The position numbers and the translations under genes are program-made. Below, one piece after another: positions 4,268 to 57,715 of a stretch of DNA of 64,000 nt (the stretch's first letter is position 1; every line of letters starts with the position of its first letter). The notes under the pieces are model-generated. The model saw only the letters and a list, made by a program, of their open reading frames with translations. It had not been told where the DNA came from and did no database searches. Source of the stretch: Plasmodiophora brassicae (taxonomy: Eukaryota); the NCBI GenBank assembly GCA_036867785.1, contig CP145428.1:434001-498000 (forward strand). Direction: 5' to 3'.

Positions 4268-4980
4268 TGCTGAGGGGGTGTTGCAGAATCGAGGCTTTTA
4301 CAGACGTCAGGCTTGAGGACCGTCACTCGGCGGGCACCATGAGTGTCAGCTGTTGGCGGTGCGGTGCGCTCCGATGGGCTTGCGAACGGGAATCCATCTG
4401 CTGCCATAAGGGCAAAGTGGATACGAACGCCGTTCCGCACCCTGAGGTCCACCCGCGTTTTAAAGGTCTTTTTAGCGGTCGCAACCAGCAGTCACTTAGA
4501 TTTCTAGAAGCAATTAGAGCTTATAATGCGGCGTCCGCGTTTACAAGCCTGGGCACGCCGGGCCTAGACACAAACCTGGCCAGCATGCGCGAGGGCGTGT
4601 ACACGTTCCGCGTGAACGGCCTGCTGTACCACCGGATCGGTACCGTGCAAGCGTTCGACGGCCAGCAGCCCAGATGGCGGCGCGGCGATCGGTCTGCGCG
4701 TCGGGATCCATAAAGTAGATCTGAGCGAACCTGGGCTTCTGGCCGTCGAACGCTTGCACGGGACCGATCCGGTGGTACAGCAGGCCGTTCACGCGGAACG
4801 TGTACACGCCATCGCGCATGCTGGCCAGGTTTGTGTCTAGGCCCGGCGTGCCCAGGCTTGTAAACGCGAACGCCGCATTATAAGCTCTAATTGCTTCTAG
4901 AAATCTAAGTGACTGCTGGTTGCGACCGCTAAAAAGACCTTTAAAACGCGGGTGGACCTCAGGGTGCGGAACGGCGTTCG
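4268..4980. mobile_element. Helitron Rep/helicase N-terminal fragment arranged as an inverted duplication
   Basis: CWRCGA..E..CCHKG zinc motif, FLEAIRAYNAAFAFTSLG, YTFRVNGLLYHRIG, PRFAQIYFMDP are typical of Helitron RepHel N-termini; present on both strands. Confidence 0.85.
4424..4980. repeat. Long inverted repeat: arms 4424-4673 and 4731-4980, 57-bp spacer
   Basis: Reverse-complement match over 250 bp with only a handful of substitutions. Confidence 0.97.
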
Positions 4981-5260
4981 AACCGATCTCGTAATACGGT
5001 ACGTAATACAATGAGGCCTAGGCCAGTCTTCAACATGTTCTATTTTCTATTATTTTTGTATGAATACTGCCCGAAAAAATAACGTTCAGTGGAAGTGTCG
5101 GGAAACTTGCTCCATTTCGGGGGAGCGGAGCCAGCCACGGGCACGACACGACACCCAGCGGGTCCTGCCTGCGGCCTTATTTTGGGATTCGACGGCCGGA
5201 GCCGCTCCAGTCAGGAGGGGGGGCTGATCCGGGCGCGGTGTGACAAATCAGTGTCATGGC

Positions 5261-8200
5261 ATGGATTGGGTGACGCTGCTCGCATGGGTCGTCCTGGTCG
5301 GCGTGGCGTTCGGGCGCCTGGGCGTCGCCGCCGTCGTCGTCAACGGCGTCCTGCGGCGCCTGCTGCCGTCATGGGCGAGCGCACGCATCCGGGGCGTGTC
5401 GTTGCTGAGCGTTGACGGCGTTGCTGTCCGGACGGGTGCCAGTTCCCCGATGTTCTATTGCGAATCGATACGATTGTGCCGGGGTCGCACGGCCCCGGTT
5501 CGCATACTGTGCCGACGCGTCATCGTCCGCGAGTGGCGTGTTGATACAGCGAGTAGCAGAGTCGGAACGCCCGTGACAACCGGTCTCGTTCCACAGTCTG
5601 TTAAACCTTTAATGGTGCGCTCATCGTCTGTCACCTGTCATTCACTGCTTACTGACGTCTCGCGCAGCCCCACATCGAGAGATGTGTGCGGAAGCTCGCT
5701 TCGTATTTCGAGGTCCATGTCGAAGACGTTGCCATCGGGGTCTGTCGCTGCCCAATATCGTTCTTGTTGCTGGTCTAATATGCTTTGACAGGGGTCGTTT
5801 GCTCCAGGTGATGGCACGACTGTGGCATCCTTCAGACTCGAAGCATCCGCTGTGCAGCTGAAGATTTCCGGTGCAACCGTCACGTCGATCGCTGTCCAGT
5901 TAAGCGTGGACTCGTTTCCGATCACTCCATGCGTGGCTGTGGAGAAGATTGAATGCCAGGCGGACTACACGTTTCTCGTAGGCGGTAGATGCTTTGCGCG
6001 CTTTCTCATTCTGACGTTCGTCTCAGGACACTTCGCCGGCGTCTGCCCGCGCGGACCTGTTTGGTATCAGTGTTACGTGCAATCCAATGAGCCTGTCGAT
6101 GTCGAGCCTTGACTTGTCCTACACCCCAACTAACCTTTCCGTTGCTGGCCAAGTGATATCTGTCGGGCTCAAGGACGAAGTTATCGTCTCCGTCGGCATG
6201 GTCTCGTCTGATGCGACCCTGACCAATCCCGAAGTCTCCGTTTGTGGACTTCATGTTCACTGCACTTCGGAATTGTCGGACGTTGTCCTGGGCGCTTGGG
6301 AGTCCCTTCAAAACTGCAGCATATCTTTAGGTGCAAACCCTCCCAAGATCCAATCTGTCTTCGTTGCGGATTCGCGTGTTTCAGTGCTCTCGCGCGACTT
6401 CATTGTTTTTAGTGCCGCTGAGTGCGCGCTTTCAGGGTCACATCAAATCGTCATGCGGCGTGTTGAGTCTATCCTGGTACGTTTATCGCGTGGCATCAAC
6501 GTTGTGGTTTACCTCTGGCGTCCTGATGATGCACGTGTAGGGTGAATCCCGCTTGATTTCATGTGATTTTGTTTCTCTGTCCTGGGCGACTCCATCCAAG
6601 GTTCTTGTCGGCTGCGATAGGGTGGTGCTGTCTGCTCACCTGCCAGTTGCTCCTTTCATCAACAAAATAGTCCTTCTGGCCCTGGACATTGCATGCAGAC
6701 TTCATTCCAGATCGTCGTCGTCGAGATCGTCATCGTCAGCACCATCGTTATTGCAGGCAGATCGGACTGTGGTCGTCGATTTACGATCGACTGAGGTCGC
6801 ATTTTCGTCAGTCCTTGTTGCCACCATGTCCCTGGCTTCCATTACTGTCTGCGGGAAGCGTTGGTCGCTGTTACTCTCTCAAGCTCAATGCCGGCACGCA
6901 TCCAAGACGTTTCTCACTGCCAATGAAATCCGATTCCTTGGCAACCCTGCTGGATATGCATCTTCGAATTGTGTCCACGAAAGCTTAAGCGTCATTGCAA
7001 GTCATGTTCGGGGTACTTGGACGCCGGCGCTCCAGCTCGATATGATGGACTTCATTAAGCGCATTGTTGCGATCGTCATAATTGCGAAATTCTCTTTATT
7101 CCAAAGATGCTTTGGTCACTTGAAATTGCCCTCACGTCCTGCTTCGGTAACCACATCGATACGTTCAAAATGCTACTATCGCTTATTCCTTGTCACAGCT
7201 GCCAGCCGGACTAGCGGAATCGGATGTCAAGATCCCGAACGAATTCTTCAGATGGGCTTACGAAACTCGGGCACCTTATCTACAAGAGCGTTTCAAATTC
7301 GTGTCCCTTTCGATAACGGACGTTGTCGTCCATGTTGCCTTGCACTCGTCACATGACATTGCAATTCGTGCGCAGCAATTCGGTTCGGCGTTCGCTCCAT
7401 ATCACTGGATGGTCAGACTTTCCATGCTTCACTAACCGGCACGCTGATTTCGTGTACAGTTACATGATGTTGGTGTTTGGTGGAATGGATATCCCTGTGT
7501 TCGATTGGATCGAGTGACTGTTGCTCGTATGTTGGGCGATTCTACGCGATCAGAGCCTGTACAAGACGTTGTCGCAGCTTCTCGTGAGTTTCGTGAGGAG
7601 TCTGTGTCAATGCTCGAGTACCTCCCGCTGCGCATTGATGCCGATGGTTTGCTGGTGAAGGTTGGCCGATGTTTTCCGACCCCATGGGCGCAGGCTAATC
7701 CCAGTCACTTCAGGTCCCTCACGATACACTCCTCGTTCCCGAATTGAGGCTATTGACGGTGCAGCTGGACGGTCTCGTTACCGCGATGGAGCAGCTCCCT
7801 ACTTTGCATCAGCTCAGTCTGGGCGAAGATTTGCTCGGTCCGGGATACTCGGCCCCACCAGCGGCGTCGCCGTCGAAGATCTCCGTTCATTTGCAGCGCG
7901 GGATCAGCATATCCCTTATGGACTCGCACTGGGATGCATGGATCAGTCAGGTTTGCATAGATCTCTTATATGACAGTATCGGAATCATCTGACAATCTCA
8001 ACATCAGATTCATCACGTTGGGCTGGACGAACGTGTGGCCGCTGAATCGAGGTCTTTCTCTTCGTGTAATTTGTCTACTTCATAACTGAATTTCTGGTTG
8101 TAGGAGAGAGCTTCTCCGCCTAAAGATACGCGAGCATCAGCGACGTAGTGGCCATATACTCACTGATGCTCGCATCGCTACCATGTCTTCACGCCTCGCT

Positions 8201-56026: not shown

Positions 56027-56367
56027 ACCGCAGCCGAACCCAGAGGTCACGAAGATATTTCCAGGCAGGTGCCAGCGCGCTCGGTCGGTTCCGCGTGCGA
56101 GCACGCGTGCCGGTCGTCGTCATGCGGGACGATTACTGACACGATGGAGCGCCGTGACCCTCAACGGTAATCGAGTTTGGGCCGCATTGACCGACACTGC
56201 CTATGTTGTTTGAAGCAGGTATCACCCAGGCAAGTCAGGCCCTGCCCCTGATGGGATAATCCGGGGTGCATTAACGGCCTGCAGATCGAGTCATCGAAAT
56301 TACGTCGCCACCATGACAACGACGGGACGGTTCGTTGCAGGCGTTATCGACCGTCTCGGTGCAACAG

Positions 56368-57715
56368 CAGTGCGCGCAGGTCAGACGCTGGAGGCCACCT
56401 GTGTCGCTCGTCTACGTTCCCCAAAACAGAGCGATGACTGCCGCCCGAATGTTCCCTGATGAGGGCAGCGGGGTTGTGGCGCGTCGCGGACTCGGGGCCT
56501 CTCGGCATGTGGCCCGCACTCGCATCAGTCGTCGCCGACTGCAAGCCGCCGCCGCAGGCATCCCGATCGCGATGGACGTCGTCAGTCGCATCACCGACAC
56601 GTCGACACCCGAGGAGGTCGCCCTCGTTGTCCGCCACCTCAGCCAAGGACGCGCACGTGTAAACGGCAGTTTTGGCGGGAGGACCCTCCGGCTCCTGGAT
56701 GACGATATTCTCGACGACTACTTCATCTGGGACGACGACGCCTCCAGCGAGGACCGCCAGGACTTCATCAACAGGTTCTGGTCGTCTATGCATCCGCCTG
56801 TACCCACGTCTGCCGTTCCGTTTACGTGCGGCAGCCTTGCCACGATGGCAGGACGTGTGGCGTCGGTCTACCTCGAAGCGAATCCGCGCGGTCGAGCCGC
56901 ACCGTACGCGATCGTGTCGGTGTCGCGAGCGCACTCGCTAGCGCATCACGGGGACGTCGTTCACGTGGCGGCGTATGAACGCGCCGGCCTGTTCGATCCG
57001 GAGCAGCAGGTCCCCCTGCCGGGCGCCCTGCCAGAATTGGACGAGCGCGCAAGTGGCTGATCCGGATCAAAGAGGCCGGCGCGTTCAAACGCCTCCACAT
57101 GGACGACCCCGTAACGCGCTTGCGAGTACGCTCGCGACACCGACACGATCTCGTAGGGCGCGCCCGGGACACGCCGACTCTGCCTCAGATACTCCGACGA
57201 CACCTCTCCCGCTCTCTTGGCAAGGTTGCCGCACGTAAAGGGAACCTTAGGCATCGGTACTGCGGGCGGGTGCATACGCGACCTGAACTTCTTGATGAAA
57301 GCTTTTCGTTCCCCACTGGATGCGTCGCCGTCCCAGATGCAGCAGTCGTCGAGAATGTCCTCACCCAGGCGCCGGAGGGCCGTCCCGCCCAATGCAGCCG
57401 TTTAGACATGCCCGCCCTTGGCTGAGGTGGCGGACAAGGGCGGGCGACCTCCTCGGGTGTCGACGTGTCGGTGATGCGATTGGCGTCGTCCATAGCGAGT
57501 GGAATGCGTGCGGCGGCGGCGGCTTGCAGTCGGCGGCGACTTGATGCGAGTGCGGGCCGCATGCGGACAGGCCCCCGTGTCCGCGACGCGCCACAACCCC
57601 GCAGCCCTCATCATGGAACATTCCGGCGACAGTCCAACGCTCTGTTTTGTGGAGAAACCGTGGACGCACCTGGAGGACACAGGCTGCCTCCCGCGTCTGA
57701 CACCTGCGCGCACTG
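56368..57715. repeat. Old inverted duplication: arms 56368-57007 and 57056-57715, 48-bp spacer
   Basis: Collinear reverse-complement similarity including the 5' flank; roughly 75-80% identity by eye. Confidence 0.92.
56572..57060 (+). CDS. Hypothetical protein with a possible SAM-like N-terminus; the opposite arm holds a frameshifted copy
   Basis: MDVVSRITDTSTPEEVA..FGGRTLRLLDDDILDDYF; minus copy MDDANRITDTSTPEEVA is broken by frameshifts. Confidence 0.45.
   Translation: MDVVSRITDTSTPEEVALVVRHLSQGRARVNGSFGGRTLRLLDDDILDDYFIWDDDASSEDRQDFINRFWSSMHPPVPTSAVPFTCGSLATMAGRVASVYLEANPRGRAAPYAIVSVSRAHSLAHHGDVVHVAAYERAGLFDPEQQVPLPGALPELDERASG

What the first reader, a model, noticed from the sequence alone, without database searches (positions are those of the whole stretch)
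4424..57715. Six independent fold-back hairpin loci, all made from transposon or accessory-gene DNA: candidate hairpin-based genome defence
Seen: long inverted duplications at 4424-4980 (Helitron), 18003-18686 (possibly secreted-protein gene), 34047-35211 (Crypton-like recombinase), 44956-45122 and 45600-46480 (CACTA-like) and 56368-57715 (orphan gene). I saw none in the ~30 housekeeping genes. Shared architecture: the arms are internal coding sequence, not terminal repeats. In at least four cases the short spacer is the in-frame continuation of one arm, and the rest of the element is missing. Arm identity ranges from near-perfect to roughly 75-80%, so the events differ in age. Established: transcribed inverted repeats yield dsRNA that can silence homologous transposons in trans (e.g. 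maize Mu killer). Inference: unrelated element classes converging on one structure suggests a host process (break, snap-back priming, truncation) that disables a copy and leaves a silencing template, or selection that retains such products. Purifying selection against fold-backs in essential genes could also explain part of the bias.
Basis: partly seen in the sequence, partly recalled or inferred. Interest (0 to 1): 0.85.

Follow-up and report, generated by a model that had tools for sequence, protein, structure and literature searches.

The report
Fold-back hairpin loci in clubroot pathogen
Six stretches of this Plasmodiophora brassicae DNA are broken transposon or gene copies folded back on themselves, a layout that could supply the double-stranded RNA for gene silencing in an organism that lacks the usual enzyme for making it.

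Summary
A self-BLAST of the window finds exactly six palindromes and no other inverted pair. They lie at 4424-4980, 17979-18708, 34047-35211, 44956-45122, 45600-46480 and 56291-57834.

The organism is Plasmodiophora brassicae. The arms are:
- a Helitron N-terminus;
- a tyrosine-recombinase gene cut just before its presumed catalytic end;
- a roughly 10-copy unclassified repeat;
- the first ~155 codons of a kinase-domain gene family;
- one open frame with no relatives.

The loci are real. One public gene model, filed under three accessions, reads through the inner junction of locus 3. Contigs of two other DNA runs reach its outer junction. Other copies of the repeat family lack the inverted arms of loci 4 and 5.

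The best reading is snap-back or template-switch repair of single copies. All five large loci keep the 5' part and converge tail to tail, so each should transcribe into a hairpin RNA.

P. brassicae has Argonautes and a dsRNA-dicing RNase III but no RdRP (PMC13547706). A role as siRNA source is therefore plausible but untested. A dedicated host process is not supported. "CACTA" and "secreted" are not supported.

The parts
4321..4423 (+). L1 upstream parental part: Helitron N-terminal zinc-finger-like region, joined to the left arm only
   Evidence: the left ORF aligns to Helraiser 7lcc_A residues 115-232 (E 5.5e-14). Residues 115-154 lie upstream of the arm.
4424..4673 (+). L1 left arm (Helitron coding, reads towards the centre)
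   Evidence: 250 nt, 4 mismatches to the right arm.
4674..4730 (-). L1 spacer: in-frame continuation of the right arm
   Evidence: the right ORF aligns to Helraiser 155-252 (E 2.6e-12). The spacer covers about 233-252.
4731..4980 (-). L1 right arm (Helitron coding, reads towards the centre)
17979..18299 (+). L2 left arm (probable inverted copy)
   Evidence: Its open frame stops 18 nt into the spacer.
18300..18388 (-). L2 spacer, open in the frame of the right arm
   Evidence: the minus-strand frame 18294-18866 runs through the arm and the whole spacer.
18389..18708 (-). L2 right arm (probable parental copy). The ORF has no detectable relatives.
   Evidence: No homologue and no Pfam family.
34047..34510 (+). 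L3 left arm: inverted copy, abutting unique flank
   Evidence: Exon part is 61/62 identical to P0001. Contigs of runs X2 and X5 run from 33500 to 34076 with no mismatch.
34511..34747 (-). L3 spacer: parental continuation (end of exon 2, intron 2, exon 3 up to HSLRRG). The break lies at its left end.
   Evidence: matches P0001 up to residue 288, then diverges. Gene model P0004 reads through the junction.
34748..35211 (-). L3 right arm: parental copy of the tyrosine-recombinase-like gene
35212..36411 (-). L3 parental 5' part of the element, including the start of the ORF. The right limit is estimated from where unique contigs begin.
   Evidence: P0001 residues 1-93. (the P0005 N-terminus matches the 35724-35996 frame). 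(depth about 2-3x; unique contig starts at 36382).
44956..45029 (+). L4 left arm: private 71-nt inverted insertion (44959-45029) that replaces 10 nt found in other family copies
   Evidence: tables 5 and 5c: joint 44958>45030 with 10 other letters at depth 281 (X2) and 293 (X5)..
45030..45047 (.). L4 spacer (parental)
45048..45122 (+). L4 right arm (parental, present in other family copies)
45600..45965 (+). L5 left arm: parental, in a repeat of about 10 copies that starts near 44122
   Evidence: Depth 311-790 (bins 44172-46172) against single-copy 48 and 73. Open frame 45514-45987.
45966..46124 (+). L5 spacer: parental continuation with intron-like GT..AG stretches
   Evidence: table 7: contigs of X2, X5 and X16 match up to 46124 and then continue with other sequence.
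46125..46480 (-). L5 right arm: private inverted copy
46481..47600 (+). 5'-truncated Ty3/Gypsy-type integrase plus chromodomain fragment, joined to the end of the L5 copy
   Evidence: rve, E 1.1e-8. (SH3_Tf2-1 E 5e-13; Chromo E 6e-7).
56291..57007 (+). L6 left arm: about 280 nt upstream region plus the first ~155 codons of a kinase-domain gene family; intact frame
   Evidence: P0002 100% identical; P0003 60%, residues 1-155. (names).
57008..57055 (.). L6 spacer
57056..57834 (-). L6 right arm: same gene part, frameshifted
   Evidence: 54% identity to P0003 residues 33-142..

Best explanation
The six loci are genuine, independently formed inverted duplications in the P. brassicae genome.

Origin (inferred from anatomy). 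A 3' DNA end arose at a break or stalled fork inside one copy of a transposon or accessory gene. It folded back or switched template and copied 70-770 nt of the sequence just behind it in reverse. It was then joined to unrelated DNA, and the rest of the copy was lost.

Consequence (shown). Each of the five large loci is a 5' gene part in sense, then a short loop, then the same part in antisense. The recombinase copy loses its presumed catalytic end. The Helitron copy loses everything beyond about residue 252 of the 1496-residue Helraiser chain, where the Rep and helicase domains lie by recall.

Function (inferred, untested). Transcription from the retained 5' end gives long hairpin RNAs with 76-615 predicted pairs joining the two halves (248-615 in the five large loci). 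P. brassicae has two Argonautes and a Drosha-like RNase III that dices long dsRNA into phased 21-mers, and it has no RdRP. The younger hairpins (L1, L3, L5) would therefore be ready-made precursors of siRNAs matching intact family members. L6 and perhaps L2 would be the same for ordinary genes.

I take the fold-backs to be by-products of error-prone repair that persist where they are tolerated. Some are possibly retained because they silence. I do not take them to be products of a dedicated host machine.
For: Reality:
- Exactly six palindromes and no other inverted pair in the self-BLAST.
- Arm divergence ranges from 0 to 16-24% with indels, so the events differ in age.
- Gene model P0004 (351 aa; three NCBI accessions, three contigs) equals the spliced translation of L3 and reads through the spacer-to-inverted-arm junction.
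- Contigs of two DNA runs from different studies cover 33500-34076 without mismatch and stop 30 nt into the arm. Depth over L3 is about 2x.

Secondary, copy-private origin:
- Intact relative P0001 (699 aa) matches the 5' part, right arm and spacer up to residue 288, then diverges.
- Other copies of the ~10x family carry 10 nt in place of the L4 left arm.
- Those copies also continue differently after 46124, where the L5 right arm begins.

DNA-level origin, not cDNA: introns are retained in the L3 arms and spacer.

Neutral decay after copying: in the open frame, arm differences are 0 synonymous/4 nonsynonymous (L1), 0/4 (L3 exon part) and 5.5/12.5 (L5).

Tail-to-tail layout keeping the 5' part: backed by homologues in L1, L3 and L6 and by open frames only in L2 and L5.

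Hairpin potential: MFE -145 to -1186 kcal/mol against -46 to -681 for shuffles. Longest uninterrupted helices are 39-149 bp.

A target exists: exon 2 and exon 3 of L3 are identical in protein to intact P0001.

RNAi context, PMC13547706 (abstract, section 2.2, Discussion, Methods 4.5 read):
- 90% of small RNAs are 21 nt and phased.
- Two AGOs; PbDRL cleaves long dsRNA; no Dicer; no RdRP.
- The paper states that how siRNA precursors are generated is unclear.
- Loci are mostly intergenic, then transposons. Fig. 2G shows a palindromic region yielding small RNAs.
Against: - No small-RNA data could be laid on these loci.
- The two RNA-labelled runs are only guessed to be RNA. Their contig depth over L3 is 3-17, against 130-1250 over the spliced genes at 37.5-43.5 kb and 0.6-20 over a quiet stretch. 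Transcription of L3 is therefore not shown.
- Depth over L4/L5 (49-434) cannot be assigned to this copy of a 10-copy family.
- Microhomology at the switch points could not be established.
- L1 has the spacer continuing the arm that lacks the upstream part. A simple one-step snap-back does not give this. It needs a forward template jump or a second event.
- In L2 the arm differences are biased to synonymous sites (7.5 of 15; pN/pS 0.29). This hints that its arms may come from two diverged functional copies rather than from self-copying.
- The orientation bias is weak: 5 of 5 gives one-sided P 0.031, and only 3 of the 5 rest on homologues.
- Enrichment in transposons disappears if only 30-50% of the window tolerates insertions.
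Confidence: 0.5

Rival explanations
1. Neutral repair scars only. The fold-backs are real products of error-prone break repair or replication template switching. They are not transcribed into effective hairpins and have no silencing role. They sit in transposon and accessory DNA because a 0.2-1.5 kb rearrangement is lethal or harmful anywhere else in a compact genome, and perhaps because transposon copies suffer more breaks.
For: - Differences between arms look neutral in L1, L3 and L5.
- The oldest locus (L6) has decayed to 76-84% identity with a frameshifted right arm.
- No clear RNA cover at L3.
- Transposon enrichment is not significant once only tolerant DNA is counted (P 0.12-0.39).
- L4 is a 71-nt templated inverted insertion replacing 10 nt, a typical small repair footprint.
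Against: - All five large loci keep the promoter-proximal part and converge (one-sided P 0.031). Neutral scars should keep either half.
- Six long palindromes in 64 kb is a high density for structures that are generally unstable (recalled general knowledge).
- The organism has a dsRNA-dicing RNAi pathway without RdRP, and at least one palindromic small-RNA locus is shown.
Confidence: 0.33
2. Element-intrinsic accidents. Each fold-back was made by the transposon's own machinery, for example aberrant or alternative transposition of a cut-and-paste element, or strand switching during Helitron rolling-circle copying. General host repair was not the cause.
For: - Four of six events lie in transposon-derived DNA.
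- In maize, alternative transposition of Ac/Ds with re-replication makes inverted duplications of fractured elements that trigger siRNAs (abstract of 10.1101/2020.01.07.897926).
Against: - Elements with unrelated transposition chemistry (Helitron, tyrosine-recombinase element, unclassified repeat) show the same layout.
- So does a non-transposon kinase-domain gene fragment (L6).
- The inverted arms are internal gene parts, not element ends.
- The tyrosine-recombinase mechanism makes no free double-strand ends (recalled).
Confidence: 0.1
3. A dedicated host process recognises transposon copies, breaks them and converts them into hairpins.
For: Only circumstantial: several element classes share one layout within 64 kb, and the 5' part is always retained.
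Against: - No component or signal of such a process was found.
- Breakpoints share no motif in the junction views.
- Arm lengths (74-770 nt) and spacers (18-237 nt) vary widely.
- One locus is a host gene fragment.
- L1 has a different topology from L3, L4 and L5.
Confidence: 0.04
4. Assembly or amplification artefacts, such as chimeric fold-back reads.
Against: - The inner junction of L3 is in a gene model filed under three accessions on three contigs.
- Its outer junction is in contigs of two other studies.
- L2, L5 and L6 arms differ by 5-24% with indels, which chimeric reads do not give.
- The L6 left-arm ORF is a public protein seen on two contigs.
Confidence: 0.03

Closest known systems
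Maize Mu killer (Muk)
   Same: [quoted passage not shown] It is proposed to be read into a long hairpin RNA that yields siRNAs and silences intact elements in trans (abstract of PMC3440606, seen in the listing). L3, L1 and L5 have this architecture, and an intact target (P0001) exists for L3.
   Different: - No transcription, siRNA or silencing is shown here.
- Muk is one locus of one family, read from a flanking promoter, in a plant with RdRP and RNA-directed DNA methylation.
- Here there are six events in several families, plus one host gene, in a rhizarian without RdRP or Dicer.
Ac/Ds composite insertions made by alternative transposition (maize)
   Same: Inverted duplications of fractured element parts. 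They are transcribed from the element or a flanking promoter into dsRNA and siRNAs that start silencing (abstract of 10.1101/2020.01.07.897926).
   Different: Those arise from the transposase acting on two element ends during replication. Here the arms are internal. The elements include a Helitron and a recombinase element, and one locus is not a transposon.
Hairpin (hpRNA) and palindromic siRNA loci in organisms without RdRP
   Same: Genomic inverted repeats as the dsRNA source where no RdRP exists.
- Hairpins from inverted repeats are listed among the RdRP-free routes in PMC3155503 (passages).
- Drosophila esiRNAs come from retrotransposons and two hairpin loci (abstract start of PMC5392987; listing).
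- Recalled, not checked here: palindromic loci of the budding yeast Naumovozyma castellii and inverted repeats of Trypanosoma brucei.
- In P. brassicae itself one palindromic region yielding small RNAs is figured (PMC13547706 Fig. 2G legend).
   Different: The P. brassicae paper does not describe what its palindromes are made of in the parts I read. It has 0 occurrences of 'inverted repeat' and 1 of 'palindrom'. Whether the six loci are among its small-RNA loci is unknown, because its tables are supplements I could not open.
Fold-back inversions and templated inverted insertions from snap-back or template-switch repair (polymerase-theta end joining, MMBIR/FoSTeS)
   Same: The parental arm plus spacer is followed by an inverted copy of the arm and by loss of the distal part. 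L4 is a short templated inverted insertion replacing a few bases. The family description is recalled.
   Different: Microhomology at the switch points, which defines these pathways, could not be established. Arms of 250-770 nt are long for end-joining inserts.
Young plant miRNA genes born by inverted duplication of their target genes
   Same: L6 is an inverted duplication of the first ~155 codons of a protein-coding gene family whose full-length member (P0003) still exists. The plant model itself is recalled.
   Different: No small RNA is known from L6. Arm identity is down to 76-84%. The longest perfect stretch between the arms is 38 nt, and the longest uninterrupted predicted helix is 44 bp.

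Membership tests
Helitron (L1 arms) | Homology to the Helitron RepHel protein | tested here: met
   Helraiser 7lcc_A residues 115-232 (E 5.5e-14) and 155-252 (E 2.6e-12). Pfam gave no family at E<=0.01.
Helitron (L1 arms) | Rep (HUH) and helicase domains present, so the copy could be autonomous | tested here: not met
   Both copies end by about residue 252 of the 1496-residue reference chain. It is a fragment, not an element. That the Rep and helicase domains lie beyond that point is recalled.
Helitron (L1 arms) | Element termini and 3' hairpin | not tested
   The 3' part is missing, and the 5' end was not mapped.
Crypton (L3) | Tyrosine recombinase with the R..H-x-x-R..Y active site | tested here: inconclusive
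   - A source names P0001 'Core-binding (CB) domain-containing protein'.
- Pfam Phage_integrase scores only E 0.052, below the cut-off.
- No PDB sequence hit.
- The single-sequence model is unusable, mean pLDDT 39.9.
- By eye the sequence has H-S-L-R, then W about 24 residues on, then Y about 11 further. The spacing resembles Cre by recall.
Crypton (L3) | No reverse transcriptase, no terminal repeats, multi-copy | tested here: inconclusive
   No RT domain in P0001. P0005 (839 aa) was not scanned. Depth is about 2-3x. Element ends were not mapped.
CACTA / En-Spm (L4, L5) | TNP2-like transposase domains | tested here: not met
   No Pfam family at E<=1, apart from chance-level rows, for 44123-44971, 45200-45604 and 45514-45987. 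No Atlas hit.
CACTA / En-Spm (L4, L5) | CACTA termini | tested here: not met
   The repeated stretch starts near 44122, where unique contigs end at 44152. The sequence there does not read CACTA. The boundary is only approximate.
Terminal-inverted-repeat, MITE or Foldback-type transposon (all loci) | Inverted repeats are the element's ends and are shared by all family copies | tested here: not met
   The arms are internal coding parts. Other copies or intact members lack the inverted arm in L3, L4 and L5.
Mu killer-type hairpin silencer | Inverted duplication of an internal or 5' part of a transposon gene, with intact members elsewhere | tested here: met
   L3 against intact P0001/P0005. L5 against about 10 family copies. 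For L1 no intact member was looked for.
Mu killer-type hairpin silencer | Transcribed into a hairpin RNA | tested here: inconclusive
   Contigs of runs only guessed to be RNA cover the loci at low (L3) or unassignable (L4, L5) depth. Strand and continuity cannot be read from contigs.
Mu killer-type hairpin silencer | siRNAs from the arms, and silencing of intact copies | not testable with these tools
No small-RNA run was on offer, and the paper's supplements are closed.
Snap-back / template-switch repair product | Parental arm plus spacer are contiguous; the inverted copy abuts the spacer; the distal part is lost | tested here: met
   L3; L4 and L5. L1 has the alternative topology. L2 rests on open frames only. 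L6 cannot be resolved.
Snap-back / template-switch repair product | Microhomology at the switch points | tested here: inconclusive
   - Junction views show none that can be told apart from the arms themselves.
- In L4, three bases at the outer edge (44956-44958) pair with 45120-45122.
- The 10 parental letters there contain AACC, complementary to GGTT at 45050-45053. This is suggestive only.

The most novel reading that the evidence does not exclude
In Plasmodiophora brassicae, which has no RdRP and no Dicer, the main source of siRNA precursors is a genome-wide population of tail-to-tail fold-back loci. Each is made when a transposon or gene copy is broken and snap-back repaired. Those that keep the promoter-proximal half are retained by selection because they silence intact relatives. 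Transposon control, and part of the annotated 'miRNA' set, would then rest on these self-made hairpins. That would answer the question the 2026 RNAi paper leaves open.
Probability: 0.25. Interest if true: 0.75.

Novelty: new member of a known kind. Interest (0 to 1): 0.55.

Why it matters
P. brassicae causes clubroot of brassica crops. Its RNAi pathway was characterised only in 2026: two Argonautes, a Drosha-like dicing enzyme, no Dicer and no RdRP. The authors state that the origin of its siRNA precursors is unclear (PMC13547706, Discussion).

Six long transposon- or gene-derived hairpin loci in one 64-kb window is about one per 10 kb. All of them are laid out so that the retained 5' end would transcribe a hairpin. 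This gives a concrete candidate for that origin, and it can be tested immediately by mapping the already public small-RNA libraries.

The principle is well known elsewhere (Mu killer, hpRNA loci). The gain is therefore for rhizarian biology and for how RNAi works without RdRP, not a new kind of system.

Separately, the loci give a clean natural series of fold-back rearrangements of different ages (0 to 16-24% arm divergence). In three of them the parental arm can be identified.

Tried and rejected
- Whole-genome test of enrichment: no genome is held for this window.
- A JGI metagenome scan with P0001 found no relative; 173 pattern matches, none confirmed.
- Earlier notes of this scan: none for this genome. 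Nothing held all the words of a long query. The 8 findings shown of 791 for a shorter query were all prokaryotic mobile elements of no bearing.
- RNA evidence: no listed holder is on record as RNA. The two runs guessed to be RNA gave contigs only, so no strand, ends or level. No small-RNA run was available.
- L2 ORF (18294-18866, minus strand): no homologue among near-length or longer proteins. No Pfam family for it or for the neighbouring frames 18719-18967 and 18971-19450. I suspected a transposase motif by eye in 18719-18967, and Pfam did not support it.
- L5 arm ORF: no Pfam family and no Atlas hit.
- An Atlas query with a housekeeping-looking ORF, meant to place the organism, gave only weak unrelated rows.
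- Structure of P0001 without an alignment: mean pLDDT 39.9. It was unusable, so no fold search was run.
- PDB sequence search with P0001: no hit at E<=10.
- Exact look-up of 10 ATG-to-stop frames across L1, L2, L5 and L6, hoping for more public gene models that span junctions: 0 of 10 are in the collection.
- Methylation-type decay: differences between arms are 31 transitions to 15 transversions over L1, L2, L3 and L5. Only 6 of the 31 transitions are in a CpG context, so there is no signal.
- cDNA or self-primed reverse-transcription origin: rejected. Introns are kept, and such a product would be head-to-head at the mRNA 5' end.
- Hairpin-end opening (P-nucleotide type): rejected because every locus has a spacer of 18-237 nt.

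Full report
**What the window is.** It is nuclear DNA of the clubroot pathogen Plasmodiophora brassicae.
- The frame in locus 3 hits a 699-aa protein that its source names as P. brassicae (86% identity with an intron read through). Further family members and the relative of locus 6 carry the same species name.
- Contigs of two runs guessed to be RNA show 50-70-nt GT..AG introns in the neighbouring genes.
- No whole genome is held for the window, so all counts below refer to these 64 kb.

**Observation check.**
- The repeat finder gave 14 inverted pairs. Thirteen fall in six places, and one is a 71% low-complexity match.
- Self-BLAST against the minus strand at E<1e-5 gave exactly six hits, each a local palindrome, and no dispersed inverted pair.
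- A 13-mer inverted-seed scan gave 26 clusters. Eleven belong to the six loci. The other 15 have 1-6 seeds each, against 1-14 clusters in 20 shuffles.
- The picture is therefore bimodal: six long fold-backs and background.
- Arm identities run from 74 of 74 aligned pairs (L4) and 98% (L1, L3), through 94-95% (L2, L5), to 76-84% (L6).
- If transcribed, the sequences fold into stems with 76-615 pairs joining the two halves.

**Anatomy of L1 (4424-4980).**
- The left arm with its upstream flank aligns to the Helitron transposase Helraiser at residues 115-232 (E 5.5e-14).
- The right arm with the spacer aligns to residues 155-252 (E 2.6e-12).
- One arm therefore keeps the upstream part, and the other continues into the spacer.

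**Anatomy of L3 (34047-35211).**
- On the minus strand the 5' part, right arm and spacer match intact P0001 from residue 1 to 288, with two introns. The match ends right after the motif HSLRRG.
- The left arm is the inverted copy and abuts unique DNA.
- The break removes the part that, by its H-x-x-R..W..Y spacing (comparison recalled), should hold the catalytic tyrosine.

**Anatomy of L4 and L5.**
- Both lie in one copy of a repeat present about ten times. Depth is 311-790 in bins 44172-46172, against 48 and 73 for single-copy DNA.
- Other copies carry 10 letters where L4 has its 71-nt left arm.
- Other copies continue with different sequence after 46124, exactly where the right arm of L5 starts.
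- The end of the L5 copy is joined to a 5'-truncated Gypsy-type integrase and chromodomain fragment.

**Anatomy of L6 (56291-57834).**
- Both arms carry about 280 nt of upstream DNA plus the first ~155 codons of a gene.
- Its only relatives among 1.84 billion representatives are the local ORF itself (P0002) and a 586-aa 'protein kinase domain-containing protein' of P. brassicae (P0003, 60% identity).

**Anatomy of L2 (17979-18708).**
- The right arm's frame extends about 50 codons upstream and runs through the whole spacer. The left arm's frame stops 18 nt into the spacer.
- This frame has no detectable relative and no Pfam family.

**Are they real?**
- P0004 is a 351-aa public gene model filed under three accessions on three contigs. 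It is letter for letter the spliced translation of L3 and runs through the spacer into the inverted arm.
- Contigs of two DNA runs from different studies cover 33500-34076 without a mismatch and stop 30 nt inside the arm, as expected for a 31-mer graph at a repeat edge. Depth over the arms is about twice single copy.
- The L2, L5 and L6 arms differ by 5-24% with indels, which read chimeras do not produce.
- L1 and L4 could not be checked independently.

**Origin.**
- In L3, L4 and L5 the parental sequence is arm plus spacer, and the other arm is a private inverted copy. In L1, L3, L5 and L6 the distal part of the gene is gone.
- This is the footprint of a 3' end that folds back or switches template, copies backwards, and is then joined elsewhere.
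- Introns are kept, so the events were at DNA level.
- Differences between arms in the open frame are not biased to synonymous sites in L1 (0/4), the L3 exon part (0/4) or L5 (5.5/12.5), as expected for decay after self-copying.
- L2 is the exception (7.5/7.5; pN/pS 0.29). Its arms may stem from two diverged copies.
- L1 has the spacer on the 'wrong' arm for a one-step snap-back. It needs a forward template jump or a second event.
- Microhomology could not be settled.
- In L3, four of the nine arm differences can be polarised with P0001, and all four lie on the parental right arm. The number is too small to interpret.

**Function.**
- All five large loci are tail to tail with the 5' part kept. 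Homologues support this in L1, L3 and L6, and open frames only in L2 and L5. Under random orientation this has one-sided P 0.031.
- A transcript from the retained 5' end would be a hairpin.
- PMC13547706 (abstract, section 2.2, Discussion and Methods 4.5 read) reports the following:
  - 21-nt phased small RNAs, two functional Argonautes, and a Drosha-like enzyme that cleaves long dsRNA.
  - No Dicer and no RdRP, and an explicit statement that the origin of siRNA precursors is unclear.
  - Small-RNA loci mainly intergenic, then in transposons, and one figured palindromic region that yields small RNAs.
- The fold-backs fit that gap, and L3 has an intact target with identical exons.
- This part is inference. 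I had no small-RNA data, and the RNA-labelled contigs neither show nor exclude transcription of L3.

**Enrichment.**
- DNA that is transposon-derived by homology or depth makes up 8.4 kb, or 13% of the window. A preprint passage gives 11-14% for the genome (10.64898/2026.10.14.759018).
- Four of six events, or three of five places, lie in it. That gives P 0.004 and 0.019 against the whole window.
- The figure rises to 0.12-0.39 if only 30-50% of the DNA tolerates such rearrangements.
- The bias is real but is explained as well by tolerance as by targeting.

**What is not supported.**
- 'CACTA-like': no transposase domain, and the approximate start of the repeat does not read CACTA.
- 'Possibly secreted' for L2.
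- A dedicated host process.
- 'Crypton' remains a reasonable but unproven label.

**In print?** The searches were:
- P. brassicae with 'transposable elements' and 'inverted repeat' (5 papers).
- P. brassicae with 'Argonaute' and 'Dicer' (21 papers).
- P. brassicae with 'genome assembly' and 'Helitron' (9 papers).
- P. brassicae with 'small RNA', 'siRNA' and 'transposable element' (19 papers).

Judged by title and abstract, none describes transposon-derived fold-back loci in this organism. The RNAi paper has 0 occurrences of 'inverted repeat' and one of 'palindrom'. The pangenome preprint has none of 'inverted', 'palindrom' or 'hairpin'. The supplementary tables of the RNAi paper, which I could not open, may already list some of these loci.

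**Verdict.**
- The origin as fold-back repair products is well supported.
- The role as hairpin siRNA sources is plausible and sharply testable, but untested.
- The kind of system is known from maize, flies and RdRP-less yeasts and trypanosomes (the last two recalled). This is therefore a new member of a known kind, of moderate interest.

Noticed in passing
window 49510-49626 (-): A full-length U5 spliceosomal snRNA gene (Rfam RF00020, 59.2 bits). It lies at the right edge of the repeated 44.1-49.5 kb block.
   Followed up: no
window 24596-24668 and 25401-25474 (-); 16847-16919 (-): Two tRNA-Trp(CCA) genes 806 nt apart, 99% identical over 74 nt, and a tRNA-Arg(CCG).
   Followed up: no
window 27201-27875 and 31204-31901: Three collinear direct-repeat segments about 4.0 kb apart, 74-83% identical: an old local duplication.
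   Followed up: no
window 14825-16765: Tandem units of about 620-860 nt, with two or three copies per repeat segment at 62-92% identity. Each copy carries a BRI3-like open frame.
   Followed up: no
window 43479-43502 and 43503-43526: Two adjacent perfect 24-nt palindromes, AT-rich then GGGCCC-flanked. They lie inside the stretch covered by RNA-labelled contigs, near the presumed 5' end of a minus-strand gene.
   Followed up: partly
window 40743-40796: An 18-nt unit is repeated three times. Contigs of runs X15 and X16 have one unit fewer, while X2 and X5 agree with the window. This is a length polymorphism between isolates, not an intron.
   Followed up: yes
window 34245, 34262, 34688, 34702: Contigs of both DNA runs differ from the window at these positions in the L3 left arm and spacer. 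At 34245 they differ from both arms of the window. The cause may be isolate differences, exchange with the intact copy, or consensus errors.
   Followed up: partly
window 17380-17480 (+): A weak chromodomain-like remnant (Pfam Chromo, E 0.054, below the cut-off) resembling the tail of the Gypsy fragment at 47.4 kb. It sits 0.5 kb left of L2, beside an ankyrin-repeat frame at 17559-17951.
   Followed up: partly
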